This document shows positions 16,330-31,467 of a stretch of 64,000 nucleotides of DNA, piece after piece (position 1 is the stretch's first letter; each line of letters opens with the position of its first letter). The position numbers and the translations under genes are program-made. Source of the DNA: a virus (lineage: Duplodnaviria; Heunggongvirae; Uroviricota; Caudoviricetes); the IMG/VR virus record IMGVR_UViG_3300038443_000233, positions 1 to 64,000 of that record, one strand, 5' to 3'. The notes beneath the pieces are model-generated. The model did no database searches. It was not told the origin of the DNA and saw nothing but the letters and a program-made list of their open reading frames with translations.

Positions 16330-16353
16330 GCGATACTACGAAAAAGCATGCTT

Positions 16354-17904: not shown

Positions 17905-18568
17905 ATAGGCAGCTCTGCCAACATACAGAACACCCTACTATGTTGCTTACCGTCGCCAAATCTTTAGGTAAAGCAACTCCCTTCCCTATGATTGTTTCTC
18001 ATAAGAAATGTTGCATACTATGTTGTGTTTTTACTACGTTTTCTCTATATTCCCTCCGTTTAGGCAAAGCAGCAGCTAGGAAACCTTACATTTCCTAGCT
18101 TTTGCACAACTTTTAAGCAGAAAATCAGCGTTTCAGAGAGCGGGTAATCTTCCACCCACTTCTCATTTTACACGTTTCCGTTCAGTTCTGCATGCCTTGT
18201 AATTAAAAATACTGTATGCATGAACAGCACTACGTACATACCATGTCACAAAGTTGTAATATATTTACGTAACAATCTACGTAACACTAGCTTCTTTCCT
18301 ACGTAACTTATTGATTTGTAGGAACACACCTACGTACGTAAGGTAGATAGGACGGAAGAATTGTCACAAGGGAAGGTGTATAAAATTTATTTCAAACATG
18401 TTGTACCTTCACAACATTGTTAGCAAATATTTATCAAAAGAGTGCGTACGCTTGAGATAACCACTTGCATTCTTCTTCCCTACGTATAAACTTTAGTTGT
18501 CCGCTGCAATGCAGCACGAGACAGAGTTAAACCTTGTGTTCACTTTCTTTCTATATAGGAGTTACATC

Positions 18569-19444: not shown

Positions 19445-19654
19445 CCTAGCTGTTGTGCGGGACAGGAAAACGTGGTAGAGTTTGACCTCCATCAACTCCT
19501 GTCCCAAACGACGTGCTATGAAAACGTTTTTCGACGTCCCCGCCATCTGGCGTGCTGTGAACCGTCCTACTCCCGCGTGGTATCGTCTCAACGTCAGCAT
19601 CGGCCTGTCCGTGTGGCGTCCTCGCAACATCCTCCGCACTCTTTGATTTTTGCA

Positions 19655-19690
19655 CAAACCCCTTGACGGGTTTTCTTTTTGTCGCTACCA
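19655..19690 (+). terminator. hairpin AACCCcttgacGGGTT + T-run, overlapping a TTGACG-17-TACCAT promoter
   Basis: The stem-loop is followed by ttcttttt. Confidence 0.4.
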
Positions 19691-19720
19691 TACGTAGCAC
19701 TACTTAACGACGAGGTAAAT

Positions 19721-20266
19721 ATGACTACCACAACCGAGTACAAGGGTTTCAAGATTCAGCACGGCATCCCGGCTTCGTCTACCCGCTACTTCGTTCTGGC
19801 CGATGGCTTCAAACAGGAAGGGTACGCAAGCTTGGGCACTGCGCACGGTGCGATTACAAAGCATTTGCAAGCGGAGGCTCTTAGCAAGGCGATTGACGCC
19901 GGTATCATGGGCGATAAGGAAGCTTTCCCGTGGGTGAAGCGGTCGAAAGCAGCTACCAGCGACGACAAGGATTACGCGACATACACCGAACTTCGGGCCG
20001 CTGTGAAAGCTGATGCCGACCGCATGACAGCCCTGTTGCGTTACTACGGGCTTGTTGATATGACTGGCTTCCCTTGTCAGACCGACAAACGGAGCCGTAA
20101 CCAACGCGAAGGCGGGTATGCTGGCACGGCTAGGCTCTACCAGATTCTTCCGGATGGCACTAGCAAGAGGCTTCGCAAGGGGCATCTTCGGGCGGGTAAC
20201 GGACGGTACATTCTAAGTCTCAGGGATCAGGCCCGTAATCTGGAACTGTCGGACCAAGGCGAATAA
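19721..20266 (+). CDS. hypothetical protein
   Basis: ORF 19679..20266. The start MTTTTEY follows an 'aggtaaat' RBS. Confidence 0.5.
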   Translation: MTTTTEYKGFKIQHGIPASSTRYFVLADGFKQEGYASLGTAHGAITKHLQAEALSKAIDAGIMGDKEAFPWVKRSKAATSDDKDYATYTELRAAVKADADRMTALLRYYGLVDMTGFPCQTDKRSRNQREGGYAGTARLYQILPDGTSKRLRKGHLRAGNGRYILSLRDQARNLELSDQGE

Positions 20267-20309
20267 ACGCCACATACATAACACACAACCAAAACTAGGG
20301 AGCAACACC

Positions 20310-20478
20310 ATGCAAGGCAATTTCAATTTCGAACGCAACACCCGTAAGCTCAACAACCAGCGCCCGCCACGTGGCGAGCAAACGGAGCGGCAACCGCAAC
20401 AGAAACGCGGTAAGCAGCAACAAAACTGGGAGCGAACGGATTCAAAACGTAACTGGGATTCATTTGGAGCTGTGTAAT
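20310..20478 (+). CDS. small basic protein (56 aa)
   Basis: The product is MQGNFNFERNTRKLNNQRPPRGEQTERQ..., with an 'agggag' RBS. The ORF is not in the supplied track. Confidence 0.3.
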
Positions 20479-21043
20479 GCTTCCAGACCAACAAGATAAT
20501 GGTATGTGGCTGCAAGGTCGGACAATTGACCGGAAATGGCACCGAACGCTAGCCGGTAACGTGTGGAACTGCATGCGCAACCGTTGCAAGTCAGGTGAAA
20601 AGCCTGCGTACCTTGGCTGTGAACTCTCTGAAGAATTCAAAGACTTTCAGAAGTTTGCTGAATGGTACGTTTCACAGGTGGGGTACGGTCTGGGCTATGA
20701 GTTGGACAAGGATTTTCTGGCGGGAGGCTCAAAGGTGTACTCCCCGGAAACTTGCGTACTGATTCCTCACAGTCTGAACGCGTTCATCAAACCTGTAAAC
20801 CCTACTAAAACTGATGGTCTACCAGTTGGCGTGTACCTACGACGTGGGAGCGGGACATACCGGGCTATCATTGGCATTGATAATAGAACGCAGTCGCTTG
20901 GTTCGTTCCAAACGGTTGAATCTGCTGAAACTGCGTATAAAGCAGCAAAACGCGCAGAGACGTTGCGTTGGATAGGTCGGCTTGAGAGTGGTGAATTCGT
21001 TGTGGATGATCGTATTATTACCGCTCTTCGCAAGATGGTATAA
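20477..21043 (+). CDS. HNH homing endonuclease with AP2 domain
   Basis: An HNH_3-like N-terminus is followed by an AP2-like segment (LPVGVYLRRGSGTYRAIIG). Confidence 0.65.
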   Translation: MLPDQQDNGMWLQGRTIDRKWHRTLAGNVWNCMRNRCKSGEKPAYLGCELSEEFKDFQKFAEWYVSQVGYGLGYELDKDFLAGGSKVYSPETCVLIPHSLNAFIKPVNPTKTDGLPVGVYLRRGSGTYRAIIGIDNRTQSLGSFQTVESAETAYKAAKRAETLRWIGRLESGEFVVDDRIITALRKMV

Positions 21044-21060
21044 GTAGTGCTACCAACATA

Positions 21061-21095
21061 CGGCCCCCGCTATTGCGGGGCTTTTCTTTTTGTGC
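21061..21095 (+). terminator. intrinsic terminator
   Basis: The stem GGCCCCCGC...GCGGGGC is followed by ttttcttttt. Confidence 0.7.
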
Positions 21096-21131
21096 TACAT
21101 TGCAAGCTCATTAACCTGAAGGAGAATTAAA

Positions 21132-21728
21132 ATGGGCCTTACCGCTGCTGAACGTGAATTTCTGGACAAGCTCTACGACACACTGACGGAGAACGAGCGT
21201 AACATCATGATGTTGGCACTGGATGACATGGTGTACCGTGCTAAAGTGTACGGTGTACCTCTGCGCGACGGTGAAGTGCTGGAAAAGCTGAAAGCAGCGT
21301 TCGTGCGTTACCTGTTGGATTGCAAGGGCGTTGATACCAGCGTAGCAGATAACGGTTTCCCGGCCCTCGACATCGATGCAAAGCTGTGGAAAGGCCAGCC
21401 GATGCACATCCGGGCAAAGAACGAGCGTAAGGTCGTGTATGCCCTTCTTACGCAAGCCGTAGAGGCCGGGTTCCAGCTCGTGGACGTGTACGATGGCGAC
21501 GAACACGAGAAGGTGAGCAACGTCAAGGAAGCGATGGAAGTGGTGTTCAACCTCGACATCTCGTACGTCTGGATGTGCAAGGAAGGCTTCAAGAAACATT
21601 ACCTGATGTTCGTGCTAGGGAACGCGGAAGACGGCTCAGAAGCGCTCGCCGACTGGAGCTACACCGATGGCGATCCTGACGGCTGGAATGCGCTCGTAGA
21701 CGGTTTTGACGCGTCCAAGGTAGTGTAA
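21132..21728 (+). CDS. hypothetical protein
   Basis: 198-aa ORF preceded by a 'gaaggag' RBS. Confidence 0.5.
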   Translation: MGLTAAEREFLDKLYDTLTENERNIMMLALDDMVYRAKVYGVPLRDGEVLEKLKAAFVRYLLDCKGVDTSVADNGFPALDIDAKLWKGQPMHIRAKNERKVVYALLTQAVEAGFQLVDVYDGDEHEKVSNVKEAMEVVFNLDISYVWMCKEGFKKHYLMFVLGNAEDGSEALADWSYTDGDPDGWNALVDGFDASKVV

Positions 21729-21751
21729 CGACCCTTCGGAGATTTTCAAAA

Positions 21752-21781
21752 ATGAACGCCACGGCTCGTCCGTGGCGTTTT
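21752..21781 (+). terminator. intrinsic terminator
   Basis: The stem AACGCCACGG...CCGTGGCGTT is followed by ttt. Confidence 0.65.
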
Positions 21782-21793
21782 CGTATGTAGAGT

Positions 21794-21868
21794 TTTCTCG
21801 GATTTGCTTTTGAAAATCAAAAGTCAGATTTTCAAACAGGACTGGGGAATTTTCGAGTCTCTTCTTAA
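21794..21868. repeat. direct repeat copy 2 (~75 bp)
   Basis: It matches the copy at 17830-17904 and contains the hairpin cttttgAaaatcaaaag. Confidence 0.8.
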
Positions 21869-21947
21869 AGAGAAATCGCCCGATCCTGCCCCGAAAATAG
21901 GCGAATTGGTGCACCGCAGCAGAGAAAGTTGCTCAAAATCAACGAAC

Positions 21948-22056
21948 TGTGGATAACCTGTGGACAAGCTGTGCACAACCCGTCCCGGCCTGTGGGCAAC
22001 CTTAGAAAAGCACGGCCGTTCTGTGGATATGTTTCCCCTGATGCATGTTATCCACA
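21948..22056. promoter_or_regulatory. cluster of six DnaA-box-like 9-mers (oriC-like)
   Basis: TGTGGATAA at 21948, TGTGGACAA at 21959, TGTGCACAA at 21970, TGTGGGCAA at 21991 and TGTGGATAT at 22022 share one orientation. TTATCCACA at 22048 is inverted. Confidence 0.6.
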
Positions 22057-22439
22057 GCCAATAGCCTATCGCCTATCATACTATGCCGATTGATAGGTAA
22101 ATGCTATTCACTATCGATTTTGGTTTTCGATAGCAAACACCGAACGCCCGGACGCGTGCGACAGGTACAGCCATGTATTTATTTTAGGCAACAGTTACCC
22201 ATTGGAAAGAGTTACTTGTAAGTAACATTCCCTTCCATCCAAGCAACGGGACACAATGCCCGATTACCCACTCTATCAGGCTGGAGCCGTACACAACAGG
22301 TTACGGTCGATACCTCACTCATCAGGTTAGACCATAGGCTAGATCGTAGGATGGAACGTAACACTAGCTGGCACGCTACTTGCCCATGCAAACTCTGTGC
22401 CATGTTGCTTGTGTGGTAAGGAATGTTGCTTACATAGCA

Positions 22440-22520
22440 CTCTTATACAAGAGTAGTCTTATATAAGACATCAGACTTAAAACTGATAAGCTATAAGAGT
22501 TAAGTCTTTGATTTGAAAAG
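22440..22520. repeat. AT-rich palindromic segment (CTTATA/TATAAG repeats; perfect palindrome GTCTTATATAAGAC)
   Basis: It lies between the DnaA-box groups and is a candidate DNA-unwinding element. Confidence 0.4.
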
Positions 22521-22537
22521 AAAAGTACCTTTCTGCC

Positions 22538-22546
22538 TGTGGATAA
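22538..22546 (+). promoter_or_regulatory. perfect DnaA box TGTGGATAA
   Basis: Exact match to the consensus. Confidence 0.5.
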
Positions 22547-22642
22547 CTATGCCATTGTGACGTGCTTTGCTTGCAAATTTCACAGAAATAAACAGGACGA
22601 TTTACACAAACCGCGTCTAAAGACCATGTTTTTAAGCAAAAG

Positions 22643-22651
22643 TTATCCACA
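22643..22651 (+). promoter_or_regulatory. perfect DnaA box TTATCCACA
   Basis: Exact match to the consensus. Confidence 0.5.
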
Positions 22652-23217
22652 TCCCTATGCCGTTTAAACGCGTTTTGAGGGGGCGCCAATGAGTTATTCA
22701 CACTGGGGTATAGCGGCATATCAACCATACCGAGAAAACGTCTCTATCGCGTTTTTCGGTTTTCTGGCACAGTTGTTGCTTATGGAGTTCTGGCACGAAT
22801 GTTGCTACGTGCGCGTGCGTCACGCGTGCGTGATTTCTCTTTTAGGTCGCGTACGTATCGCTGCCTACCTACCGTGGCGCTGTTACAAATTATTTTAAAT
22901 AGGGTATTGCGGATACCCTAAATCCTAGGCATAATCCTAACCACTGACACACACAACGATGTGTCAGGGAAGGGGCGAATGCCCTAAAGCCTAGCGGCGC
23001 GTAGCGGTGGATTCCAAAGCGCAAAGCGGTGGCAATAGGTAGATAGCCAATAAGTCTGTTCTTTAACAATTCATAACATGATGCCCGTATCGCTGGGATA
23101 GCGTAACAAGAGGGGCATACAAACTAGGCCACATGGGAATGTCGCTTAGGACAGTAGATAAAACTAGGAACCGTTAGAAATAGCGGTTCCGAATTTATCT
23201 CACTGACGGAGTATGAA

Positions 23218-23418
23218 ATGGGAATCGAAGCATTAAATAAATCGCAAGTGAAAGAGATTCAAAAACTCGCAATTTACTACAAGTTAGAAATGCAAGACAG
23301 TGTGGCGCTTGGGTTGTCCGCGTTGATTCGTGCATCCCGCACGAACGCACAGAAAACGGCATTGCTTGAATATGCCGAACTGTTCGGCGTGAAAGATCAT
23401 AAAGAATTCATCATTTAA
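23218..23418 (+). CDS. early small protein (66 aa)
   Basis: First gene of a tightly packed plus-strand operon. It has a GGAG RBS, and the hairpin GGAACCG..CGGTTCC lies upstream. Confidence 0.5.
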   Translation: MGIEALNKSQVKEIQKLAIYYKLEMQDSVALGLSALIRASRTNAQKTALLEYAELFGVKDHKEFII

Positions 23419-23428
23419 AGGATGCGGA

Positions 23429-23626
23429 ATGAAAACCTGTAAAACACATTCGCAATTCAACGAAGCAATAGTAAATAAAGAAATCGCACAATTTACCGTG
23501 CCGGAGAAATACAAACATACCGTTCTGATTCGCGCAATGCTGTACCACTGCAAAGCGTTGTTTACCGTTACAACTGTAGACGGACAACGTACATTTGCGA
23601 TTACCGGATACGATAAAAGGAAATGA
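23429..23626 (+). CDS. early small protein (65 aa)
   Basis: ORF preceded by an AAGGA RBS. Confidence 0.5.
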   Translation: MKTCKTHSQFNEAIVNKEIAQFTVPEKYKHTVLIRAMLYHCKALFTVTTVDGQRTFAITGYDKRK

Positions 23627-23627
23627 A

Positions 23628-23834
23628 ATGCGCCTGATTCAAATTATTCAATTACCGGATGCAGCGAAAACCGGACGTTCTGTAAAGATCAAAAAGGATA
23701 CGGACACGGCCGAATATGTTTGCCAATTGCACGAGCATGGCAAGCATTACGAACCAGCCGATTATTTCACATCGGATTATTTGGATGCGCTCGAAACAGC
23801 GCGTCAAATGTGCAAACCAGTTAATGCAGAGTGA
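23628..23834 (+). CDS. early small protein (~68 aa)
   Basis: An internal ATG with an AAAGGAAAT RBS avoids overlap with the upstream gene. Confidence 0.45.
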   Translation: MRLIQIIQLPDAAKTGRSVKIKKDTDTAEYVCQLHEHGKHYEPADYFTSDYLDALETARQMCKPVNAE

Positions 23835-23841
23835 GAACGTC

Positions 23842-24057
23842 ATGAAAGCACAAAAAGATTTGCGTTCGGCAATCCTGAATTGCTTGACGCCACAACAGCA
23901 AAAAGAATTGGCCGATGTAATTACGGAATTCGCAACGGCAACAAAAGAATACGGAATCTTTCTAACGGCAAATGATCCTCGTTTGTCGGAAAGTCTCCAG
24001 CGTGCTAACCGTGCATGGCATGAGTTGCGCTTTATCGGGCTGGAAACAAAATTCTAA
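23842..24057 (+). CDS. early small protein (~71 aa)
   Basis: The start is MKAQKDL. Confidence 0.45.
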   Translation: MKAQKDLRSAILNCLTPQQQKELADVITEFATATKEYGIFLTANDPRLSESLQRANRAWHELRFIGLETKF

Positions 24058-24075
24058 TAACGGAGACAAAACAAA

Positions 24076-24291
24076 ATGAAGAAATTAAAAAAGGCTATTA
24101 TCGATTTCATTATCGATAGCGTGAATTGCCTTGCACCGTACACTGTCCGTAATGCACATTTCAAAGTGGTGCATTCGGCATGGTCCTACGATGCCGCAAT
24201 CGAATGGCTTAAATGCTATGACGCTCGCAAATTCGGTGCAACACACATCTATGATTTCAATGGCGAATTGATCGCATACAAAGGGGCATAA
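24076..24291 (+). CDS. early small protein (71 aa)
   Basis: ORF with a 'cggaga' RBS. Confidence 0.5.
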   Translation: MKKLKKAIIDFIIDSVNCLAPYTVRNAHFKVVHSAWSYDAAIEWLKCYDARKFGATHIYDFNGELIAYKGA

Positions 24292-24292
24292 T

Positions 24293-24541
24293 ATGCAATT
24301 AGCAAAGCGTGAACTACTTTCATCGGAAAAGTTTCTTACTAGATGGAAGGATGCCGATAACCTTGTATCCTATTCCATCGGATACAGCTACCATTCCGAA
24401 AGACATGGCGTCCATTGCCAATTAAAGGATACGGATAATAAAAGTTTCTTTTTACGCTTTACGCCAGAGCAGGCAGAGCAATTCGCTAATCAGTTGCTTG
24501 AATGGGCAGGTAAAGCACGTGAATATCAAAAGACTGTATAA
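24293..24541 (+). CDS. early small protein (82 aa)
   Basis: Its start abuts the stop of the upstream gene. Confidence 0.5.
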   Translation: MQLAKRELLSSEKFLTRWKDADNLVSYSIGYSYHSERHGVHCQLKDTDNKSFFLRFTPEQAEQFANQLLEWAGKAREYQKTV

Positions 24542-24552
24542 GGAATAAGATC

Positions 24553-24843
24553 ATGGCAAAGCGTAAAACTAATGTGCAATTCGTAAAGCACGTAATGGAA
24601 TTCTCGAACCACGGCGCACTGATGCAAGTATTCATCTTGCAAGGTTTGGAACAGTACGCAAAGTCTGTTGCAGCCAAAACGCCCGAACAGCTTGATTCTC
24701 CGATGGTAAACGGCCGGGCATGGCATGGATGCGCAACGGAACTGATTCAAGCAATCAATGAGCATTTCGAACGTCCGAAGCCAAAAACGCTTGCCGAACT
24801 GGAAAGGAAAACCCGCAAGACTTTCGCAACCCGTAAGAGCTAA
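24553..24843 (+). CDS. early small protein (96 aa)
   Basis: ORF with an 'aggaa' RBS. Confidence 0.5.
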   Translation: MAKRKTNVQFVKHVMEFSNHGALMQVFILQGLEQYAKSVAAKTPEQLDSPMVNGRAWHGCATELIQAINEHFERPKPKTLAELERKTRKTFATRKS

Positions 24844-24901
24844 TCAGCTATAGCGCATCCTCGTGCGCTATGTCGGATTCTTTTATAGGAGGCATACCGG
24901 A

Positions 24902-25201
24902 ATGAAATTGCTAAATGGCGACGGTTCGCCTATGGGCCTAAATTTCAGACGTCACAAACAGAACAAAGGTTTTGTTATTCGTGTTGCTGGAAATGGGCAA
25001 CAAACAGATTTTGGAGTCACGCCCGATAACATAACTGATGTGTACGAAAAGGCGATAGACAAGCGCCTAGAGCTTTTGGGCATACCAGACGATGCGGACG
25101 CATGGCAAACGCTTGCGAGCGCCTACGGTGCGTTTTTGACGCGTTACGGCGTGGAAGTTAAACCAGTGACTCATTATGAATTCAAGATAAAGGGGAAATG
25201 A
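24902..25201 (+). CDS. early small protein (~99 aa)
   Basis: The start MKLLNG follows a 'taggagg' RBS. Confidence 0.5.
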   Translation: MKLLNGDGSPMGLNFRRHKQNKGFVIRVAGNGQQTDFGVTPDNITDVYEKAIDKRLELLGIPDDADAWQTLASAYGAFLTRYGVEVKPVTHYEFKIKGK

Positions 25202-25204
25202 ATT

Positions 25205-25453
25205 ATGGCTTTCAAGTTTGGTGTAGACGGAGCTAAAAACCGCGTTGAAACTATTTTCTCTACTGGCGTAAATGTTGGCGGAAAAGAAATCACGCATGGC
25301 GTTGTTTTGAAAGAAGACGGACAAGCGACCAAGATTACAAATCGTCTAGGCGAATCGGTTTTCATCGGTGACGATTCATTAGATGCTCTGGTTCTCGCGT
25401 TGCAAGAGGTACAAAGGCAAATCCAAATCGGCATGCTGAAAAGGAACAGTTAA
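25205..25453 (+). CDS. early small protein (82 aa)
   Basis: ORF translationally coupled to its neighbours. Confidence 0.5.
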   Translation: MAFKFGVDGAKNRVETIFSTGVNVGGKEITHGVVLKEDGQATKITNRLGESVFIGDDSLDALVLALQEVQRQIQIGMLKRNS

Positions 25454-25455
25454 TC

Positions 25456-25815
25456 ATGGCATACGACACTTTTAAAAATGTGTTTGTTGCGGATAACGGT
25501 GATTTGATTCGCAAAAGAGATTGCGCAGTAGTTCGCAAACAATACAGTTTCACGTTCTCTAAGTCTCGCGATTCCCAGCAATTGCGAGCAACCATTCGTC
25601 GCGGCGGATTTGTATGGCCGGGAGGATATCCGCTTTACCTGATTAACAAAGACGGAGATTGCATTTGCTTTAAATGCGCAAAAGAGAATTACAAAAGCTT
25701 GTCCCGTGATTTGCTGCATAACGGGTCTTTGCATACCGACGTGAATTTCGAAAACAACGATTTGATTTGCGACTACTGCAATAACCAAATCGAACCAGCA
25801 TACACCAACGATTAA
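25456..25815 (+). CDS. early zinc-ribbon protein (119 aa; CICFKC...CDYC)
   Basis: It carries a Cys4 motif. Confidence 0.5.
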   Translation: MAYDTFKNVFVADNGDLIRKRDCAVVRKQYSFTFSKSRDSQQLRATIRRGGFVWPGGYPLYLINKDGDCICFKCAKENYKSLSRDLLHNGSLHTDVNFENNDLICDYCNNQIEPAYTND

Positions 25816-25827
25816 AGGCATAAAATC

Positions 25828-26640
25828 ATGAGCAAAAACATTAGCACCGTCTTGCACGTCTTCGATTTCAACATCAGCAATTCGGAGGAAAAAGCGGCGT
25901 ATTTGGCACTTGTCGAAAGTCTTAAAGCAAAAGGATTGAAATGTTTTGAATCACATGGAGCTGGAAGCCATTACATCCCGCAATTGGCTGGGCCTGTTAC
26001 ACTCGAAACTGACTTTCTGTTTGATAACCAATGGAACACCGAAGGCAGGGACGGTAAAAACGGACATCGGGTTTTCGATTGGGCAATGGACTACAAGCCG
26101 AACAATAACCCGAATTTGAAGCGTGGGCATTGGTTAGAACAAACCGAAGAAATGCGAACGGCGCGCGCTAACCGTTGCAAATGCGGTTTTTGCGGTAATC
26201 AGATGGATATGCCCGACGTACCAAAGTTTTGCCCGAAATGCCTTGATAGCGAATATCTTAAATCGACGGAATTGCATTTGACGCGAATGCAACCAATCGC
26301 GAATGAGGTTCGCGAACCGTTGACGCCTGACGAACTGGCCGAACGTCTTCCACTGTACAAGGATGCGCAATTGCATGGCACCACTGCACGCGGAAGAGCA
26401 CGCATCGCAAAACGTCGCGCTGATTTGCTTAAAGAACGGGATTCAGCAATTCGTAATGCTAATACAGAATACGACGGTATGATTTGGTTAATGGACCACG
26501 GCATAACTGAGCAACCAATCTATTACAATCATACCGGGCGTTTTTGCTTTGGCTGGCGTAGTGGTGGAGTGGATGCCGCAGTAAAGCCGGATTTGATTGC
26601 AGCGCTTGACGGCTTCCCGTTTCCGTTTGACATCAAGTAA
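25828..26640 (+). CDS. early protein (270 aa) with zinc-ribbon CKCGFC...CPKC
   Basis: Largest ORF of the early operon. Confidence 0.55.
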   Translation: MSKNISTVLHVFDFNISNSEEKAAYLALVESLKAKGLKCFESHGAGSHYIPQLAGPVTLETDFLFDNQWNTEGRDGKNGHRVFDWAMDYKPNNNPNLKRGHWLEQTEEMRTARANRCKCGFCGNQMDMPDVPKFCPKCLDSEYLKSTELHLTRMQPIANEVREPLTPDELAERLPLYKDAQLHGTTARGRARIAKRRADLLKERDSAIRNANTEYDGMIWLMDHGITEQPIYYNHTGRFCFGWRSGGVDAAVKPDLIAALDGFPFPFDIK

Positions 26641-26649
26641 GGGGCAATA

Positions 26650-26844
26650 ATGGCAAAGCCTGAATTGACGCATTACGGTCTAACGCGTGAAGAGTTTGCA
26701 AATAGGGTTGGCAAACACAAATCTTGCTTTGATGCTAGACCATATTTACGTGCAATCTGCGGAAATGGGAGTTATCACGCGAAATGCACTCAAATTAAGA
26801 GCAAGGTAGATTGCCCTGAGTGCTTAAAGCAAATCACGAGCTAA
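26650..26844 (+). CDS. early small zinc-ribbon protein (64 aa; C..C...CPEC)
   Basis: ORF preceded by a 'taagggg' RBS. Confidence 0.45.
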   Translation: MAKPELTHYGLTREEFANRVGKHKSCFDARPYLRAICGNGSYHAKCTQIKSKVDCPECLKQITS

Positions 26845-26910
26845 TCAGCTAATACGCAATTCAGAATACCGGATTGCGTATTGTCGGATTAACTAACACG
26901 AGGTTATAGA

Positions 26911-27147
26911 ATGGCGAATGATTACAGGGTAGACCGTACGGACGATAAAAACCGTGTACCGTGCGGCATGAATTCGATTGTCTTTATCGGAGAACGCAAA
27001 GGACAGGCAAGAAACGCGTTCATTGCGACAGAACCGGGCAAAGATGCATGGGGCAAACCTAACGAAAATTACGGTGTGGTTCTGTCGTGCTGGGATGCAT
27101 CAAAACGTGATTATGTGATTATCGATACTAAAGGATTCGACAAATGA
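26911..27147 (+). CDS. early small protein (78 aa)
   Basis: ORF with a 'cgagg' RBS. Confidence 0.5.
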   Translation: MANDYRVDRTDDKNRVPCGMNSIVFIGERKGQARNAFIATEPGKDAWGKPNENYGVVLSCWDASKRDYVIIDTKGFDK

Positions 27148-27662
27148 AATACGAAACTCTTCCCGCCGTTGCGCTGTTGCTTGACTCGTCACGCGGCGTT
27201 TACATTCCAAAAGCTTTTGCAGAATCGTTCAATATGAATGACTGGCACGTATCGGACAATCAACGGGATTGCCTGTTAGCTGGTCCGGACGATGAGCAAG
27301 ATTTGTATTGGGATTACTGGTCTAGCATTCTGGATAATGCCTACTACGAAAAAGACGGCAAACGCTGGACGTTGTATCAAGACGGTGATTTGTGGGCGCT
27401 TTGCGATGCCGACATGACGAACGATGAAAAACGCAATTTCGGCTTTGACGTCGATCCGTTTGAATACGTTATCGATTTGGACGAACGCGGGGAATTCAAA
27501 GCGACGGTTTATGACGATAAAGGTAATCAGGTATTTGAAATAAACGGCTTCGATTTGTTTGACGATGGGTACATGAAGCATAAAGACGACATCGACGGAT
27601 TGAAAGCTTATCTTGTCGGACTGTGCATCATGCAAGACGGTGACAAACTGATTACGGGATAA
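27144..27662 (+). CDS. early acidic protein (172 aa)
   Basis: Its ATGA start overlaps the upstream stop. Confidence 0.5.
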   Translation: MKYETLPAVALLLDSSRGVYIPKAFAESFNMNDWHVSDNQRDCLLAGPDDEQDLYWDYWSSILDNAYYEKDGKRWTLYQDGDLWALCDADMTNDEKRNFGFDVDPFEYVIDLDERGEFKATVYDDKGNQVFEINGFDLFDDGYMKHKDDIDGLKAYLVGLCIMQDGDKLITG

Positions 27663-27666
27663 CGCT

Positions 27667-27921
27667 ATGGCAAATCCGCTTAAAAGGAAATTCGGGCATC
27701 GTAATCAATACGATGTTGAGCTGATTTTGAATGTCAACGGGGAAGGGGGCAATGGCGTATATATCGAATACAAAGCGGCACGGACACACAAAAGCTATAC
27801 AGCGTCACTTGCATGTGCACAAGATACAGGGGAATTAGAAAGCGCTGACGGTATGACTCATTTCATCGAATCAGCCATTCTGGACGACATAGAAGCATGG
27901 GCAATTGAAAACGGTTACTAA
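27667..27921 (+). CDS. early small protein (84 aa)
   Basis: ORF. Confidence 0.45.
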   Translation: MANPLKRKFGHRNQYDVELILNVNGEGGNGVYIEYKAARTHKSYTASLACAQDTGELESADGMTHFIESAILDDIEAWAIENGY

Positions 27922-27980
27922 GCTATTCAGCTATAGCGCTACGGGTTAGCGCTATGTCGGACCAGCTTTAAGGGGCAACC

Positions 27981-28208
27981 ATGAAACAGACTCGCATGCG
28001 AAGCGGGAACGCTCGCAAGATTAACGCATTAGCGGACATTGAAATCATCCGGCCTAATGGCAATACGATTAGCAAAGCTATTCCATGCCGCATCGTTGGC
28101 GACAAGCTTTATACGATGACACGGACGTTTTGCATTAACTCGAAAAAGAAGATTGCCGGTATCAAAGGCGATACCGAGTGCAAGCTAATTGCATACTCAA
28201 CCGTATAA
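27981..28208 (+). CDS. early small protein (75 aa)
   Basis: ORF with an 'aagggg' RBS. Confidence 0.45.
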   Translation: MKQTRMRSGNARKINALADIEIIRPNGNTISKAIPCRIVGDKLYTMTRTFCINSKKKIAGIKGDTECKLIAYSTV

Positions 28209-28220
28209 GGGATTACAGGT

Positions 28221-28454
28221 ATGAATAAAGGTAGCTGGAATTCTTACCTTGCCAGTTTCACTATAGGCGAAAGACGGTATGTCGAAACTACGCTAAACAC
28301 ATATCCCGCAACAATGCGCACAGTGAATACGCCCAAATCACGCCGTCCCGAAGAAATAAGGGAATGGGAATTTACAACAGAACTATTTACGGCCGTTAGC
28401 GCGAGCAAAGCCGGAGAAATACGCTATTTAATATCAATTGAAAGGATTTCATAA
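28221..28454 (+). CDS. early small protein (77 aa)
   Basis: ORF. Confidence 0.45.
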   Translation: MNKGSWNSYLASFTIGERRYVETTLNTYPATMRTVNTPKSRRPEEIREWEFTTELFTAVSASKAGEIRYLISIERIS

Positions 28455-28455
28455 C

Positions 28456-28764
28456 ATGCGCAATATCAAAACTAAATACTACGTCGGCAAACGCTATAGT
28501 GATCCGATCCAAACCAATTCGGGCAAAGATGCAAACATGGCTGTTGCTCAAGCTGTTCTGCATATGCAGATTGCCCACTATCGCGACGAATCGCGCAACC
28601 CTGCTACCTCGTGCGAAGTGTACGATAACGCATCAGGACAGTTGCACGCGATCATTACGCGTTCGCCATTGGGACAGATTCAAATCGTTTATAAACGCGA
28701 TCCAGAGAAATACGAAACTCGTCTTGCCATCGGTGCATTGTTCGATAAACCGAAGGGGAACTAA
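28456..28764 (+). CDS. early small protein (~102 aa)
   Basis: The start MRNIKTK follows an 'aaagga' RBS. Confidence 0.45.
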   Translation: MRNIKTKYYVGKRYSDPIQTNSGKDANMAVAQAVLHMQIAHYRDESRNPATSCEVYDNASGQLHAIITRSPLGQIQIVYKRDPEKYETRLAIGALFDKPKGN

Positions 28765-28955
28765 TGAAAACCGGATACCTCAAAAAGGACCGTCAGGAAC
28801 GGTTCAATATGAAACGGGCTTGGTTCGTAAATGCATGGCGTATCGTGGACGCTCAAGGGGTAGACATGGTGCAACCATGGTGCAATACGAAAACCGATGC
28901 TAGACGAGTTGCAAAACAATTGAATATCAACCTTATCGAAAGTGACGAGAAATGA
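28764..28955 (+). CDS. early small protein (63 aa)
   Basis: ORF with overlapping ATGA coupling. Confidence 0.45.
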   Translation: MKTGYLKKDRQERFNMKRAWFVNAWRIVDAQGVDMVQPWCNTKTDARRVAKQLNINLIESDEK

Positions 28956-29557
28956 AAAACTTTAAATCGTCTGTGCCGTTGTTGGTGCAAGCAAAGATTC
29001 ATTCCCTCGCAACGGAAATCAAACTTTCCTTTTCCGATGTCGTCACGTGCCGTTATGAATCAATGGGTGACGTTCGTATGTCCGACATCGAAGGTAATTA
29101 CGTATCCGGATGGATGCCACGTCAGGACGGCGGATTTGATGTTAGTTTGCTTGTCGACAGTGGTATCGATTCGTCCTACCACGTAACACCCAAGCAAACG
29201 GAATTCGTCAACGAACAGGAAAAGAATTGCTTTAACGCGTTCCTATCGGATAACGATTTGGACGACGAAACGTCATGGGATGATTTGACGGATGAACAGA
29301 AAGAGGAATATTGCAATTACCAGCATGATTGGTTTTCTGACGGTGCATTGATTCAGATTCAAATCTTCGCATCGGGTTATCCCGGTTCCTACTGGGAAGA
29401 GAAAGAGCAAACGATCACCGTACGCGTTAGCGTCAATTACAGAGATGCCCCTTATTTCCGTGAAAAATCCGCTGAAGACATCAAGCAACTGATTCTGTCC
29501 GAAGCTGAATTTATGGAAATGTCCAACGCGGACATCATGAAACAAATCACGATCTAA
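28952..29557 (+). CDS. early acidic protein (201 aa)
   Basis: ORF. Confidence 0.5.
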   Translation: MKNFKSSVPLLVQAKIHSLATEIKLSFSDVVTCRYESMGDVRMSDIEGNYVSGWMPRQDGGFDVSLLVDSGIDSSYHVTPKQTEFVNEQEKNCFNAFLSDNDLDDETSWDDLTDEQKEEYCNYQHDWFSDGALIQIQIFASGYPGSYWEEKEQTITVRVSVNYRDAPYFREKSAEDIKQLILSEAEFMEMSNADIMKQITI

Positions 29558-29569
29558 AGGAAAACAGAA

Positions 29570-29830
29570 ATGAAAGCATATCAGGCATACGGCAAAGCTG
29601 GACGCGTCACTAAACCTACGCCACGACAAGCGGCATTGGCCTATTTCGACCAATGGCCTACCAGCCGTAAATGCGATGTCATACAAGGGGAAACGGACGG
29701 CAATTTCTTTACCGTGAAATACGGGCGTGCGTCTAACGGTGACTGGCCGGAAAGCTTCAAAGGCATTACCAAGAAAACCGCAAGCGAATTGCACGATAAC
29801 GCCCAAGGGGAAGCAAATGAGCCGCAATAA
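29570..29830 (+). CDS. early small protein (86 aa)
   Basis: ORF with an 'aaggaaaa' RBS. Confidence 0.45.
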   Translation: MKAYQAYGKAGRVTKPTPRQAALAYFDQWPTSRKCDVIQGETDGNFFTVKYGRASNGDWPESFKGITKKTASELHDNAQGEANEPQ

Positions 29831-30071
29831 AACGGAGGGATGGTACAAAGGGAAAATAAACGGCGTGCACCAGCGTAACGGCGTTACGTGGGGCCGCACA
29901 TGCAAACGCACATATCGGGGCGGCGTGAATTTCAACACGCGTACACGAGCCATGCGCAAGTATTGGAAAATGCTTAACTCCAATTCAGCACCAGAGAATC
30001 AAGGCAAATGGGGCGGATGGATTAAACCCGAATCATTCCCCGCACCGTGCAAGCTGTACCCGGATGACTAA
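29817..30071 (+). CDS. early small basic protein (~84 aa)
   Basis: ATG at 29817 after 'aagggga', with a 14-nt overlap with the upstream gene. It is followed by a terminator. Confidence 0.45.
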   Translation: MSRNKTEGWYKGKINGVHQRNGVTWGRTCKRTYRGGVNFNTRTRAMRKYWKMLNSNSAPENQGKWGGWIKPESFPAPCKLYPDD

Positions 30072-30114: not shown

Positions 30115-30412
30115 GCAATACTTGCGTAATCAATGAGTAGTCAACCAGCCCTGTCTGCCGACCTAGTACGTAACCCTACCTAACCATGCATGCGGTAACA
30201 CGCCTAGAACGCATGGGAATGGGCCTACATTCAACGAACGCCATTACTTGGCTAGGCTGGTATAGGCAAGCCTATTTAAAACGCTCTAAACGCGTCCTGT
30301 AGAACGTACATATAACACTGTTATTCGCAACGATTATAGTCATAGTCTAGTGCCATAGGCACAGAACATAACTCTATCGGCCTATGGCCGTTGCCTGTAC
30401 TACCTTCCCCAT

Positions 30413-30434
30413 TGACCCCTTGAACGGGGTCAAC
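30413..30434. repeat. perfect palindrome TTGACCCC-TTGAAC-GGGGTCAA
   Basis: 8-bp arms, located inside the palindrome array region. Confidence 0.6.
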
Positions 30435-30916
30435 CTATAGGCCATTGGCCTAATCCTACCTGTGCCATTGGCACAATAGATAACTCTATCGTTCTCTATT
30501 CATCATTCCTATATCATCCCCACATAGCAGAAATACTATCGCCTATGGCGAATTAATAGCACATAGCCATAGGCTATGGCATATACCATGCCCATAGGGC
30601 ATAGCAATAATAGCCTGTGCCTATGGCACTAGACATACTCATATGTGTAGCCAATGACAGACAGGCGGGGCGTTAGCTTAGCCTGTGCACTAGCCAATGG
30701 CTCTTTCTTGGCACGAGAATTGCATGTCCGGGCCTTTGGCCCCTACCAAACGCTATCGATCTACACTCGGCCATAGGCCAGAGCTATAATCGTTTAAACG
30801 AGCTATGAGGCGTTTGCAGAACGCACCCTAGTGCGGACATCAACGAGGCATCGTTCGGCCCTCTACGGGCCTATACGCAAGCCGTAGGCATATCCCTGTG
30901 CCAATGGCACGAATAG

Positions 30917-30925
30917 TTATCCACA
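30917..30925 (+). promoter_or_regulatory. perfect DnaA box TTATCCACA within the palindrome array (a near-box, TTGTGGACA on the opposite strand, lies 20 bp downstream)
   Basis: Exact consensus 9-mer. Confidence 0.45.
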
Positions 30926-31261
30926 CTGGACAGGTAGATGTCCACAACCCAGACGTTCCTCTGGATTTTATACACAGCCCTTTAAACGCGTTTAGAGGCC
31001 CATAGCGACGTTCTCTGTGCCGATGGCACTTTCCCCCTGTCTGAGCCCTCCGGGCTGCTCCTATGATATTTCTGAGCCATTGGCGACCCCAATCGCCGCC
31101 CCCGGCGAGCCGTTAAGCAATCCGTTCGCCCTCCGCAGGTATTACCCTTTTTGAACATATCATCTTGAACGTGTTTCATAGGAGAAATGCCGAGAAAGTT
31201 TCGGCAGTGGGCGGATAAATTTCGCCAATGGCGATGGATATTGCGAATGAGGGCTGTTTCT

Positions 31262-31285
31262 TAAATTTTTTTTTTTTAAGAAAAT
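31262..31285. repeat. homopolymeric T12 tract flanked by CTTAAA/TTTAAG
   Basis: The sequence is cttaaattttttttttttaag. Confidence 0.7.
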
Positions 31286-31467
31286 CAATGACTTAGAAAT
31301 ACAAAGAGCCGGTGCAGCACAACGGCTACATCCCGGCTCTAGGGCTTACAGTTGACGGGCATGGCTGTAAGCATTTGCTCTATAGGGCCAATGGCCCGGT
31401 AGCCCGTGCAGTGACTTGACGTACGCTACACAGCGTAGGATATTCCAAGAGAACGTCAAGAAAAGAA

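What the first reader, a model, noticed from the sequence alone, without database searches (positions are those of the whole stretch)
21900..23217. oriC-like module: six DnaA boxes in 110 bp plus two more perfect boxes flanking an AT-rich palindromic segment
Five boxes in one orientation lie at 21948-22030, with an inverted sixth at 22048: TGTGGATAA, TGTGGACAA, TGTGCACAA, TGTGGGCAA, TGTGGATAT and TTATCCACA. Two more perfect consensus boxes lie at 22538 and 22643. They bracket an AT-rich stretch at 22440-22520 built from CTTATA/TATAAG repeats and a perfect 14-bp palindrome, which has the architecture of a DNA-unwinding element.

This 1.3 kb is non-coding and separates the replication module from the early operon. 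It suggests host-DnaA-dependent initiation, as in a phage-plasmid or P1 oriR-like origin, or deliberate DnaA titration. The phage also encodes its own primase-helicase, so a DnaA-dependent origin is notable.
Basis: partly seen in the sequence, partly recalled or inferred. Interest (0 to 1): 0.75.

Follow-up and report, generated by a model that had tools for sequence, protein, structure and literature searches.

The report
Phage DnaA-box arrays bracketing early genes
A 1.5-kb gene-free stretch of an uncultured 91-kb phage carries conserved clusters of binding sites for the host replication initiator DnaA, mixed with sigma-54-type promoter elements and followed by the early promoter and a structured leader RNA; the clusters are real and under selection, but they resemble the DnaA-box arrays beside the first-injected genes of phage T5 at least as much as a replication origin.

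Summary
The gap 21729-23217 holds four perfect TTATCCACA boxes and five near-consensus ones; shuffles give 0.36 perfect boxes in 64 kb. Six related metagenomic phages (ligase 63-72% identical in five of them) keep 4-7 perfect boxes at the same place. Between strains the gap varies less than the neighbouring genes.

The gap is composite. Its right third is a sigma-70-type early promoter plus a ~270-nt leader RNA with compensatory base changes. The AT-rich "unwinding element" is an array of conserved 16-bp palindromes. Perfect sigma-54-type -24/-12 elements are interleaved with the boxes.

A second, smaller box group lies 8 kb downstream (30917-30997), so the boxes bracket the early operon in all close relatives. 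This layout matches the untranslated DnaA-box regions around the T5 pre-early genes. I found no Rep gene, P1-type iterons, GATC cluster, plasmid relative or GC-skew switch.

Tandem DnaA boxes and helically phased sigma-54-type arrays each occur in at least 120 viral contigs and co-occur about 30 times more often than chance.

My estimates: T5-type DnaA platform bounding the early block 0.38; DnaA-assisted origin 0.32.

The parts
21755..21779 (+). Hairpin after the upstream gene (21132-21728), with a T-run on the plus strand; probably that gene's terminator
   Evidence: Perfect 10-bp inverted repeat (I21). The terminator scan scored it on the minus strand; the plus-strand T-run (gttttcgt) is read. 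The assignment to the upstream gene is an inference.
21803..21877 (+). Conserved ~70-bp block (TTGCTTTTGAAAATCAAAAGTCAGATTTTCAA..GGACTGGGGAATTTTC..TCTTCTTA). A second copy lies at 17840-17905.
   Evidence: Two copies only in the window, none in shuffles. The block is invariant in parts across relatives.
21948..22056 (.). DnaA-box cluster I. Five boxes in one orientation (21948, 21959, 21970, 21991, 22022; the first three 11 bp start to start) and one inverted perfect box (22048).
   Evidence: The same layout occurs in six relatives.
22369..22402 (.). Divergent, overlapping pair of perfect sigma-54-type -24/-12 elements: TGGCACGCTACTTGC on the plus strand and TGGCACAGAGTTTGC on the minus strand
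   Evidence: The identical 15-mer is present in L001, L003 and L005.
22436..22535 (.). AT-rich segment built from 16-bp palindromes (TCTTATACAAGA 22441-22452, TCTTATATAAGA 22457-22468, partial copy about 22490-22506)
   Evidence: Relatives carry 3-4 copies spaced 16-23 bp.
22538..22702 (.). DnaA-box cluster II: TGGATAA-type perfect box at 22538 (minus), perfect box at 22643 (plus), TTATTCACA at 22694 (plus). The spacings of 105 and 51 bp are conserved.
   Evidence: L001 and L002 have identical spacing.
22663..22680 (.). Imperfect dyad TTTAAACGCGTTTTGAGG, core of a motif ATGCCRTTTAAACGCGTTTTRAGG that is widespread in viral contigs
   Evidence: 46 IMG/VR loci. Only 20 hits in 596 Gb of bacterial genomes, about chance by my estimate. 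A second copy lies at 30980-30997.
22765..22805 (+). Two tandem sigma-54-type elements, 26 bp apart (22765-22779 and 22791-22805)
   Evidence: D6. The 22791 copy is conserved in L001-L004.
22806..22842 (+). GC-rich hairpin with a T-run (terminator-like) directly after the sigma-54-type element
   Evidence: Conserved in relatives and in unrelated loci L050, L102 and L204.
22902..22935 (+). Sigma-70-type early promoter: -35 TTGCGG (22907-22912), 17-nt spacer, -10 CATAAT (22930-22935), overlapped by the palindrome GGGTATTGCGGATACCC
   Evidence: Read from the sequence. Both hexamers are conserved in 7 genomes. The generic promoter scan did not call it. This is an inference.
22942..23217 (+). Structured 5' leader RNA of the early operon: hairpins at 22944-22967, 23089-23104, 23124-23150 and 23167-23190
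   Evidence: RNAalifold: 28 of 44 pairs keep pairing through changes on both sides (on alignment A3).
23218..30071 (+). Early operon of about 22 small ORFs, almost all of unknown function
   Evidence: Partly syntenic in relatives.
30709..30723 (+). Sigma-54-type element in the second non-coding region
   Evidence: Conserved in relatives, with the TTATACACA box 258-259 bp downstream in each.
30917..30997 (+). Second DnaA-box group: TTATCCACA (30917), ATGTCCACA (30938), TTATACACA (30968), then TTTAAACGCGTTTAGAGG
   Evidence: Conserved in the relatives that reach this region (L063-L067).
30340..31400 (.). Array of 14 short palindromes of the type GCC-WWW-GGC in the second non-coding region (30072-31664)
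   Evidence: 11-13 copies in four relatives; L067 has only 2. The region is hypervariable between strains.

Best explanation
The gap 21729-23217 is the conserved early control region of a ~91.5-kb siphovirus-type phage known only from metagenomes.

Shown. The right third of the gap is a sigma-70-type early promoter and a ~270-nt structured leader RNA. The left two thirds are a platform of conserved sites that match host proteins: two clusters of consensus DnaA boxes, sigma-54-type -24/-12 elements, and in the closest relatives a LexA-type box. These surround an array of 16-bp palindromes. A smaller copy of the box module lies at the other end of the ~7-kb early operon.

Inferred. This is the same kind of element as the DnaA-box arrays in the untranslated regions that flank the pre-early genes of T5-like phages. 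Host DnaA is already present and partly membrane-bound, so it would load on the phased high-affinity boxes as soon as this DNA is in the cell. DnaA oligomers at the two ends of the early block could bridge or anchor it. The resulting complex would mark and hold the inner boundary of the first-expressed block. It could pause further genome entry, or insulate the block, until early proteins act. On this reading the complex does not fire the phage's replication.

The structural role, and the assumption that the early block enters first, are inferences. The binding sites, their conservation and their placement are shown.
For: Boxes are real and selected.
- Five perfect boxes against 0.36 expected, four of them within 800 bp.
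- Six relatives have 4-7 perfect boxes at the same place. The five with ~12-21-kb loci (L001-L005) have none elsewhere.
- The 105-bp and 51-bp spacings are conserved.
- The gap always lies between the homolog of 21132-21728 and the early genes.
- Between strains the gap shows 0-1 change in 1489 bp. In the variant strains the early genes show 25-34 changes in 6854 bp.

Boxes bracket the early block.
- In four relatives a second region about 8 kb downstream has a sigma-54-type element, a TTATACACA box 258-259 bp after it, and a palindrome array.
- The two other relatives that reach this region keep a box there.

T5 precedent.
- All T5-like phages carry about 8 DnaA boxes in pairs, in two untranslated regions around the pre-early genes. 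The author argues these are not the origin (bioRxiv 10.1101/866236).
- I confirmed the boxes and a conserved LexA-type palindrome in five T5-like genomes.
- Relatives L001 and L002 carry TACTGTATAAAAACACAGTA after cluster II.

Wider pattern.
- Cultured virulent phages with box arrays carry them near genome ends or early regions. Examples are the T7-like phages A7 and ZK1 (boxes within the first 200 bp of the record), the Vibrio phage BD1, three Arthrobacter phages, and T5-likes.
- A distant relative with PhageTerm-mapped ends has them in a convergent non-coding region that matches this phage's second gap (PMC11512268).

Against an origin.
- No initiator gene was found in the window.
- GC skew does not switch across the gap.
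- The phage has its own polymerase, primase-helicase and ligase.
Against: - The role of the DnaA boxes in T5 is itself an untested hypothesis.
- This region has no sequence homology to the T5 region beyond the boxes.
- I found no A1/A2-like proteins.
- The genome ends of this phage are unknown. Contig ends scatter inside the second gap and give no single terminus, so "first-entering block" is an assumption.
- The two box groups are direct repeats with 2-bp spacers. In T5 they are inverted repeats with 3-bp spacers.
- Boxes at 2-bp spacing beside the least stable DNA of the gap are exactly what an origin would show.
- Only 64 of about 91.5 kb was inspected for initiator genes.
Confidence: 0.38

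Rival explanations
1. DnaA-assisted, transcription-coupled replication origin. DnaA oligomers on the phased boxes stress and open the AT-rich palindrome segment. Transcription from the flanking sigma-54-type or sigma-70-type promoters supplies an R-loop or primer. The phage primase-helicase then loads on the opened DNA. The palindromes may bind a phage initiator, as the lambda O sites do.
For: - Three boxes are head to tail with 2-bp spacers, and an inverted box closes the cluster.
- A TGTGGATAA box sits about 10 bp from the least stable segment of the gap, in E. coli R1-like orientation, in the window, L001, L002 and L004 (orientation from my own knowledge).
- Relatives carry 3-4 palindromes at 16-23-bp spacing, which recalls the lambda ori O-binding sites (comparison from my own knowledge).
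- Promoter elements point into the region.
- In other viral contigs the arrays lie next to long AT-rich tracts and a C-rich motif.
- In the T7-like phage A7 the array lies downstream of a T7-type promoter near the genome end. In T7 the equivalent phiOR promoter is linked to secondary origins (my own knowledge).
Against: - No virulent phage with its own T7-type replisome is known to use DnaA (my own knowledge).
- The box next to the AT-rich segment is absent in L003, L005 and L036.
- I saw no DnaA-trio pattern by eye, and GATC is not enriched.
- GC skew does not change sign across the gap.
- A second box group at the far end of the early operon is not needed by this model.
- No initiator gene was found in the window.
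- The divergent region 17906-18496 lies next to the replication operon and about 1.3-1.9 kb left of the skew minimum. It has its own repeats and is an equally good origin candidate.
Confidence: 0.32
2. Purely regulatory region. DnaA, sigma-54 RNA polymerase and, in relatives, LexA act as sensors of host state. They tune or insulate early transcription. DnaA bound at both ends of the early operon would act as a roadblock against read-through.
For: - The region lies directly upstream of the early promoter and leader.
- The second box group lies where the early operon ends.
- DnaA is a known transcription factor and roadblock (PMC8203912 was listed but I did not read it; this rests on my own knowledge).
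- An operator-like palindrome overlaps the -35 hexamer.
Against: - The main box clusters are 200-990 bp upstream of the early -35 hexamer, too far for classical activation or repression.
- Intrinsic terminator-like hairpins are already present.
- Sigma-54 promoters need an enhancer-binding activator. None was found in the window, and no GAFTGA signature occurs in 3.1 Mb of fetched loci.
Confidence: 0.15
3. DNA decoy or sponge. As the genome replicates, its arrays of high-affinity DnaA and sigma-54 sites titrate these scarce host proteins. This would shut off host initiation and sigma-54-dependent stress responses.
For: - All perfect boxes are of the high-affinity consensus type.
- Sigma-54-type arrays of up to 11 copies occur in viral contigs.
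- E. coli datA is a known DnaA-titrating box cluster (my own knowledge).
Against: - Conserved spacing, orientation and placement are not needed for titration.
- Helical phasing of the sigma-54-type sites suggests an ordered complex.
- About nine boxes per genome is a small load early in infection.
Confidence: 0.1
4. Chance clustering of box-like 9-mers with no function.
For: The window-wide count with one mismatch allowed is not enriched (14 against 12).
Against: - Four perfect boxes lie within 800 bp, against at most 1 in 300 shuffles.
- The boxes are conserved in six diverged genomes.
- The gap is more conserved between strains than the neighbouring genes.
Confidence: 0.01

Closest known systems
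[quoted passage not shown]
   Same: - Large conserved gene-free regions flank a block of small first-expressed genes in a big virulent phage that has its own replisome.
- Consensus and near-consensus DnaA boxes occur as close pairs in two separate regions a few kb apart.
- A LexA-type palindrome lies next to the boxes (T5-likes; relatives L001 and L002 here).
- The distal region is packed with short repeats and palindromes.
- The non-coding DNA is better conserved than the neighbouring genes.
   Different: - No sequence homology beyond the boxes. The shared TTAAACGCGTT 11-mer is specific to T5 and therefore chance.
- Spacers are 2 bp here and 3 bp in T5.
- The two groups are direct copies here and inverted copies in T5.
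- Sigma-54-type elements are present here and absent in T5.
- No A1, A2 or dmp homologs were found.
- A long terminal repeat is not shown for this phage.
Bacterial oriC (E. coli type) and the DnaA-titrating locus datA
   Same: - A cluster of high-affinity 9-mers is present.
- Same-orientation boxes have 2-bp spacers, which suit DnaA oligomer growth.
- One box is inverted at the end of the cluster.
- In four of seven genomes a box lies about 10 bp from the least stable DNA.
   Different: - No GATC cluster and no recognisable DnaA-trio or 13-mer repeats.
- The AT-rich part is an array of specific palindromes.
- GC skew does not switch there.
- The element sits in a phage with its own helicase-primase.
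- A second group lies 8 kb away.
P1 oriR and iteron-plasmid origins (DnaA boxes flanking Rep iterons)
   Same: DnaA boxes lie on both sides of a set of repeated protein-binding sites.
   Different: - No adjacent rep gene and no 19-22-bp direct iterons.
- No GATC-rich 7-mers.
- No partition genes were seen in the window.
- The gap has no match among plasmid records.
Terminal-repeat regions of T7-like phages of the genus Berlinvirus and the subfamily Molineuxvirinae (seen here in records NC_048180, NC_028822, OK625527)
   Same: - Arrays of 4-6 perfect TTATCCACA boxes lie in gene-free DNA near genome ends, in virulent phages with their own replisome.
- In A7 a T7-type promoter lies upstream of the array.
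   Different: - Those arrays lie within about 200 bp of the start of the linear records A7 and ZK1.
- They have no sigma-54-type elements and no palindrome array.
- Their function is also unknown, and the records carry no annotation there.

Membership tests
oriC-type DnaA-dependent origin | Cluster of several DnaA boxes, beyond chance | tested here: met
   Four perfect boxes in 800 bp against at most 1 in 300 shuffles. Conserved in six relatives.
oriC-type DnaA-dependent origin | AT-rich unwinding element directly next to a correctly oriented box | tested here: inconclusive
   Present in the window, L001, L002 and L004. The adjacent box is absent in L003, L005 and L036. The segment is made of specific 16-bp palindromes. 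It is only the fifth least stable site of the window.
oriC-type DnaA-dependent origin | Switch of strand composition (GC skew) at the origin | tested here: not met
   The cumulative G-C minimum is at 19792. The slope is positive on both sides of the gap although both sides are plus-strand genes. This is a weak test in phages.
oriC-type DnaA-dependent origin | DnaA binding and DnaA-dependent autonomous replication | not testable with these tools
   Needs footprinting and replication assays.
P1 oriR / iteron-plasmid origin | Adjacent rep initiator gene and direct 19-22-bp iterons | tested here: not met
   No Rep, initiator or partition family among the scanned window ORFs. The repeats found are palindromes and sigma-54-type 15-mers. 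Only 64 of about 91.5 kb was seen.
P1 oriR / iteron-plasmid origin | GATC-rich segment; relatives among plasmids | tested here: not met
   Two GATC in 1489 bp against about 6 expected. The gap has no plasmid match.
T5 injection-stop / pre-early repeat regions | Conserved untranslated regions with paired DnaA boxes on both sides of the first-expressed gene block | tested here: met
   The T5 side was checked.
T5 injection-stop / pre-early repeat regions | Sequence homology to T5 IRD'/IRC', and A1/A2 genes | tested here: not met
   BLAST finds only the boxes. No annotated function fits A1/A2 among the early ORFs.
T5 injection-stop / pre-early repeat regions | Location inside a long terminal repeat; two-step DNA entry | not testable with these tools
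   Contig ends give no terminus. Read-level analysis and infection experiments are needed.
Sigma-54-dependent promoter | -24 GG / -12 GC elements with exact spacing (YTGGCACGr-N3-TTGCW) | tested here: met
   Five perfect matches, all in the two gaps. Across 384 viral array members the unconstrained flanking positions also follow the sigma-54 consensus.
Sigma-54-dependent promoter | An enhancer-binding activator and its upstream sites | tested here: not met
   No Sigma54_activat family in the scanned ORFs. No GAFTGA signature in 3.1 Mb of loci. A host activator cannot be excluded.

The most novel reading that the evidence does not exclude
Many unrelated phages carry a previously undescribed class of non-coding "host-factor platform". 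It consists of helically phased arrays of sigma-54-type -24/-12 elements, often coupled to arrays of 2-bp-spaced consensus DnaA boxes. These sit next to early genes, terminase genes or genome ends.

On this reading the phage recruits two pre-existing host machines, DnaA and sigma-54 RNA polymerase. Sigma-54 polymerase binds stably without transcribing. Together they would build an ordered nucleoprotein complex on incoming DNA, or a transcription-primed origin. The window's gap would be one member of this class.
Probability: 0.3. Interest if true: 0.85.

Novelty: new variant of a known kind. Interest (0 to 1): 0.62.

Why it matters
The function of DnaA boxes in virulent phages that bring their own replisome is an open question. 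The only discussion I found is a hypothesis for T5.

This clade gives a second, independent case with the same layout: boxes on both sides of the early gene block. The boxes are consensus-perfect and strongly conserved, so the T5 idea becomes testable by comparison.

The unexpected part is the company the boxes keep. Sigma-54-type elements match the full host consensus. They occur as phased arrays in at least 120 viral contigs. They co-occur with DnaA boxes about 30 times more often than chance. My library searches found no paper describing sigma-54-type promoter arrays in phage genomes.

If these sites are bound by host sigma-54 polymerase, phages would be using a silent, activator-gated polymerase form at the very start of infection, or as part of origin or entry control.

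Tried and rejected
- DNA similarity of the gap, or of 20 kb around it, to cultured phages and to plasmids: none.
- Rfam: only tRNAs at gathering score, and nothing credible in the gap at relaxed thresholds. No tRNA or tmRNA in 21.5-31.8 kb.
- PAK_P3, a distant relative by polymerase: no DnaA boxes at all.
- The published in-silico "origin" of phage vB_PseuGesM_254: an AT tandem repeat in a divergent promoter region, not homologous.
- A link to T5 through the shared 11-mer TTAAACGCGTT: rejected, because other T5-likes do not keep it.
- The 49-nt imperfect inverted repeat 22207-22255 / 22396-22444 as an RNA or cruciform: not conserved in relatives.
- A general DnaA-box plus LexA-box rule: only 2 of 120 tandem-box loci have a CTGT-N8-ACAG within 250 bp. 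The pairing holds only for T5-likes, this clade and a few others.
- A phage-encoded sigma-54 activator: not found.
- Genome termini from contig ends: ends scatter within the second gap and give no single terminus.
- Related loci through proteins 21132-21728 and 33667-34872: no relative, or only unrelated phages.
- Plasmid search with protein 42005-43702, which I first took for the terminase: no match, and it was the wrong protein. The true terminase large subunit was not searched against plasmids.
- Literature searches for the dyad motif and for sigma-54 promoters in phage genomes: nothing relevant.
Full report
1. What the window is

The 64-kb window has no nucleotide match among 50,697 cultured phage records. 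Its proteins place it far from any cultured phage.
- The family A DNA polymerase (2710-5211, minus strand) is 47-50% identical to those of Aeromonas phage phiA047 and the Pseudomonas PAK_P3 / KPP10 group.
- The terminase large subunit (47116-48600) is 41% identical to Pakpunavirus terminases.
- The DNA ligase is at best 38% identical to any cultured phage.

Gene content:
- A minus-strand replication and nucleotide block occupies 1-17856. It encodes the polymerase, a UvrD-type helicase, a protein with a dATP/dGTP diphosphohydrolase domain, a primase-helicase (9571-11412), a ThyX-like protein, an RNA ligase and a DNA ligase.
- Four plus-strand genes lie at 18497-21728.
- A plus-strand block of about 22 small ORFs lies at 23218-30071.
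- A minus-strand block at 31665-37025 includes an AntA/KilAC antirepressor, an HD-domain protein and a serine recombinase.
- Thirteen tRNAs lie at 38402-41534.
- Structural genes follow, including a portal, a major capsid protein and an 1850-aa tape measure.

The same phage occurs in several JGI and Logan assemblies. The longest contig is 91,532 bp.

One more, TTATTCACA at 22694, was missed. Perfect TTATCCACA occurs five times in the window against 0.36 expected. Four copies lie within 800 bp, and none of 300 dinucleotide shuffles had more than one in such a span. The fifth copy is at 30917.

The count with one mismatch allowed is not enriched across the window (14 against 12). The signal is therefore the clustering of perfect sites. 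The first three boxes of cluster I are head to tail, 11 bp start to start (2-bp spacers).

3. Conservation

A search with the ligase found six IMG/VR contigs, five of 89-92 kb and one 13-kb fragment, with 59-72% ligase identity. A DNA-motif scan added a seventh, L036.
- Each of the five loci that reach this region has 4-7 perfect boxes within about 800 bp and none elsewhere in 12-21 kb. All five show the same two-cluster layout. L001 and L002 also share the 105-bp and 51-bp spacings of cluster II. L036 has four perfect boxes in two clusters.
- The gap always lies between the homolog of 21132-21728 and the early genes.
- Two more distant contigs, L006 and L068, lack perfect boxes.
- Alignment A1 shows invariant blocks separated by variable DNA.
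- Among strains of this same phage, the gap has 0-1 change in 1489 bp. In the variant strains the early genes have 25-34 changes in 6854 bp, and the second gap has up to 31 mismatches and 11 gaps in 1593 bp.

The gap is under stronger constraint than the genes beside it. Its small ORFs are not kept as ORFs in relatives; the largest and two others carry stops there.

4. Anatomy of the gap, left to right

- A hairpin that probably terminates the upstream gene (21755-21779).
- A conserved ~70-bp block (21803-21877). Its only other copy is at 17840-17905.
- DnaA cluster I (21948-22056).
- A stretch of GATAGC / GCTATC-type repeats (about 22060-22140).
- A divergent, overlapping pair of perfect sigma-54-type elements (22369-22402).
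- The AT-rich segment (22436-22535). In every relative it consists of 3-4 copies of a 16-bp palindrome, consensus ASTCTTATATAAGAST, spaced 16-23 bp.
- DnaA cluster II (22538, 22643, 22694), with the dyad TTTAAACGCGTTTTGAGG between the last two boxes.
- Two more sigma-54-type elements 26 bp apart (22765, 22791). The second abuts a GC-rich terminator-like hairpin (22806-22842).
- A sigma-70-type promoter, TTGCGG-N17-CATAAT (22907-22935), overlapped by the palindrome GGGTATTGCGGATACCC and conserved in seven genomes.
- A leader of about 270 nt. RNAalifold predicts 44 pairs in it, and 28 of them keep pairing through changes on both sides.

At least the right third of the "non-coding origin" is therefore a promoter and an RNA.

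5. A second module

The 1.6-kb gap 30072-31664, at the far end of the early operon, contains:
- a sigma-54-type element (30709);
- a perfect box (30917), and weaker boxes at 30938 and 30968;
- the same dyad (TTTAAACGCGTTTAGAGG, 30980-30997);
- fourteen short GCC-WWW-GGC palindromes.

In four relatives the sigma-54-type element lies 258-259 bp upstream of TTATACACA and comes with 11-13 palindromes. The two other relatives that reach this region keep a box there. DnaA boxes therefore bracket the early block across the clade.

6. The origin reading

In favour:
- The 2-bp spacers and single orientation of cluster I suit DnaA oligomerisation.
- An inverted box closes the cluster.
- In the window, L001, L002 and L004 a TGTGGATAA box lies about 10 bp right of the least stable DNA of the gap. 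By my recollection this is the orientation of E. coli R1 relative to its unwinding element.
- The palindrome array recalls the lambda O-binding sites.

Against:
- That adjacent box is absent in L003, L005 and L036.
- GATC is not enriched.
- I saw no DnaA-trio pattern.
- The cumulative G-C minimum is at 19792, and the slope is positive on both sides of the gap although both flanks are plus-strand genes.
- The scanned ORFs contain no Rep, initiator or partition family.
- The gap has no plasmid match.
- The region 17906-18496 abuts the replication operon and lies about 1.3-1.9 kb left of the skew minimum. It carries about six CTACGTAAC-type repeats and a LexA-type palindrome, so it is an equally good origin candidate.

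The P1 oriR / phage-plasmid version is not supported. A DnaA-assisted origin remains possible.

7. The T5 precedent

A full-text search found Davison's analysis of T5 (bioRxiv 10.1101/866236).
- All T5-like phages carry about eight DnaA boxes in close pairs, in two untranslated repeat regions around the pre-early genes of the terminal repeat.
- T5 origins were mapped near the genome centre.
- The author proposes that membrane-bound DnaA stops DNA injection at these boxes. This has not been tested.

I confirmed the boxes in T5. Five T5-like genomes also share a perfect LexA-type palindrome next to the boxes. The paper does not mention it. The closest relatives here, L001 and L002, have TACTGTATAAAAACACAGTA after cluster II.

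No homology exists beyond the boxes. An apparent shared 11-mer turned out to be chance.

The shared architecture is:
- a large virulent phage with its own replisome;
- a block of small first-expressed genes;
- conserved gene-free regions on both sides;
- box pairs in both regions;
- a repeat-rich distal region.

A distant relative with PhageTerm-mapped 628-bp terminal repeats has its ends in a convergent gene-free region that corresponds to the second gap here (PMC11512268). The early block may therefore lie next to a genome end. Contig ends did not settle this.

8. A wider pattern found on the way

- Tandem boxes. Arrays hold 2-11 perfect boxes. Apart from a distant primase-helicase match in 4 of the 120 loci, these phages share no protein with the window at E<=1e-8. 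In several, the array lies in a gene-free region between the terminase gene and small early-type ORFs.
- Cultured phages. Arrays lie within about 200 bp of the record start in the T7-like phages A7 and ZK1. In A7 a T7-type promoter lies upstream. Arrays lie within 100 bp of the record ends in Arthrobacter and Vibrio phages, and they occur in T5-likes.
- Sigma-54-type elements near tandem boxes. There are 22 within 700 bp of the boxes against 0.65 expected, with arrays of 5-6 in two loci.
- The reverse scan. Arrays reach 11 copies. Same-strand spacings peak at 26-28, 36-37, 46-47, 57, 67, 77, 88-89 and 99-101 bp, which is helical phasing. Perfect DnaA boxes are enriched near them, 38 against 1.2 expected.
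- Consensus. In 384 distinct array members the positions that my pattern did not fix follow the sigma-54 consensus: Y before TGGCA in 86%, G then R after it, and W after TTGC in 90%.
- No enhancer-binding-protein signature occurs in 3.1 Mb of these loci.
- The dyad motif of the gap is also phage-wide: 46 viral loci, against a chance-level 20 in 596 Gb of bacterial genomes.

9. Verdict

The boxes are real DnaA-type sites under selection. They belong to a composite early control region. I rank the explanations as follows:
- A T5-type DnaA platform that bounds and holds the early block: 0.38.
- A DnaA-assisted, transcription-coupled origin: 0.32.
- A purely regulatory role: 0.15.
- Titration of host factors: 0.10.

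The binding sites, their conservation, their placement, the promoter and the leader RNA are shown. Every statement about what DnaA or sigma-54 does there is inference. One caveat applies to all host-factor models. The phage encodes a dATP/dGTP diphosphohydrolase-type domain, a nucleoside deoxyribosyltransferase-like protein and a ThyX-like protein. Its DNA may therefore be modified, and that could change host protein binding.

Noticed in passing
window 22369-22402, 22765-22805, 30709-30723; loci L132, L192 and L216 onward: Five perfect sigma-54-type -24/-12 elements, all inside the two gene-free regions. Similar elements form helically phased arrays (spacings 26-28, 36-37, 46-47, 57 bp and so on) in at least 120 viral contigs. 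No activator gene was found.
   Followed up: partly
window 30072-31664: Second gene-free region with fourteen short palindromes of the type GCC-WWW-GGC (for example GTGCCATAGGCAC and GGCCTATGGCC). Four relatives keep 11-13 copies. The region is hypervariable between strains, and several assemblies break inside it.
   Followed up: partly
window 17840-17905 and 21803-21877: A ~70-bp block with an internal 10-bp inverted repeat occurs exactly twice, as direct repeats. The copies flank the four-gene segment 18497-21728, which includes an HNH endonuclease. A similar AAAAGTCAAG motif starts the array regions of unrelated contigs L106, L132 and L192.
   Followed up: partly
window 17906-18496: Divergent gene-free region next to the replication operon, about 1.3-1.9 kb left of the GC-skew minimum. 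It has a LexA-type palindrome (TACTGTATGCATGAACAGCA, about 18211) and about six CTACGTAAC-type repeats. It is an alternative origin or operator region.
   Followed up: no
window 22942-23217: Structured ~270-nt leader RNA of the early operon, with four helices supported by compensatory changes. Two hairpins have GGGA loops. A terminator-like hairpin lies just before the first start codon. No Rfam family matches.
   Followed up: partly
window 22655-22685 and 30975-31000; loci L007-L052: The imperfect dyad ATGCCRTTTAAACGCGTTTTRAGG occurs in 46 viral contigs of several unrelated groups. It is usually intergenic, and in one group it sits 23 nt upstream of a 57-aa gene. In bacterial genomes it is at about chance level. 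The binding protein is unknown.
   Followed up: partly
window 7610-8956, 2206-2694, 11718-12905: A dATP/dGTP diphosphohydrolase (MazZ-type) domain, a nucleoside 2-deoxyribosyltransferase-like protein and a ThyX-like protein suggest that the phage may modify its DNA bases. No PurZ was looked for.
   Followed up: no
window 33667-36190 (minus strand): An AntA/KilAC antirepressor, an HD-domain protein and a small serine recombinase sit together in an otherwise virulent-looking genome. The antirepressor-like gene retrieved only contigs outside the clade identified by ligase.
   Followed up: partly
window 37000-37300 and 31261: The least stable (most AT-rich) DNA of the window lies in the gene-free region before the tRNA cluster, and at a T12 run inside the second gene-free region. 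It is not in the finding's region.
   Followed up: no
loci L344-L346 (phages A7, ZK1, P483) and hits H117-H136: Cultured T7-like, Vibrio and Arthrobacter phages, and several gokushoviruses, carry unannotated arrays of 4-6 perfect DnaA boxes. In the tailed phages most arrays lie within 60-200 bp of a record end.
   Followed up: partly
locus L341 (JGI 3300037419, 8,777-bp contig): One assembly produced a contig that runs from the AT-rich part of the first gap (window-equivalent 22,489) to the T-run in the second gap (31,265). That span is the early block alone. It could reflect different coverage of this block, as a long terminal repeat would give, or only repeats.
   Followed up: no
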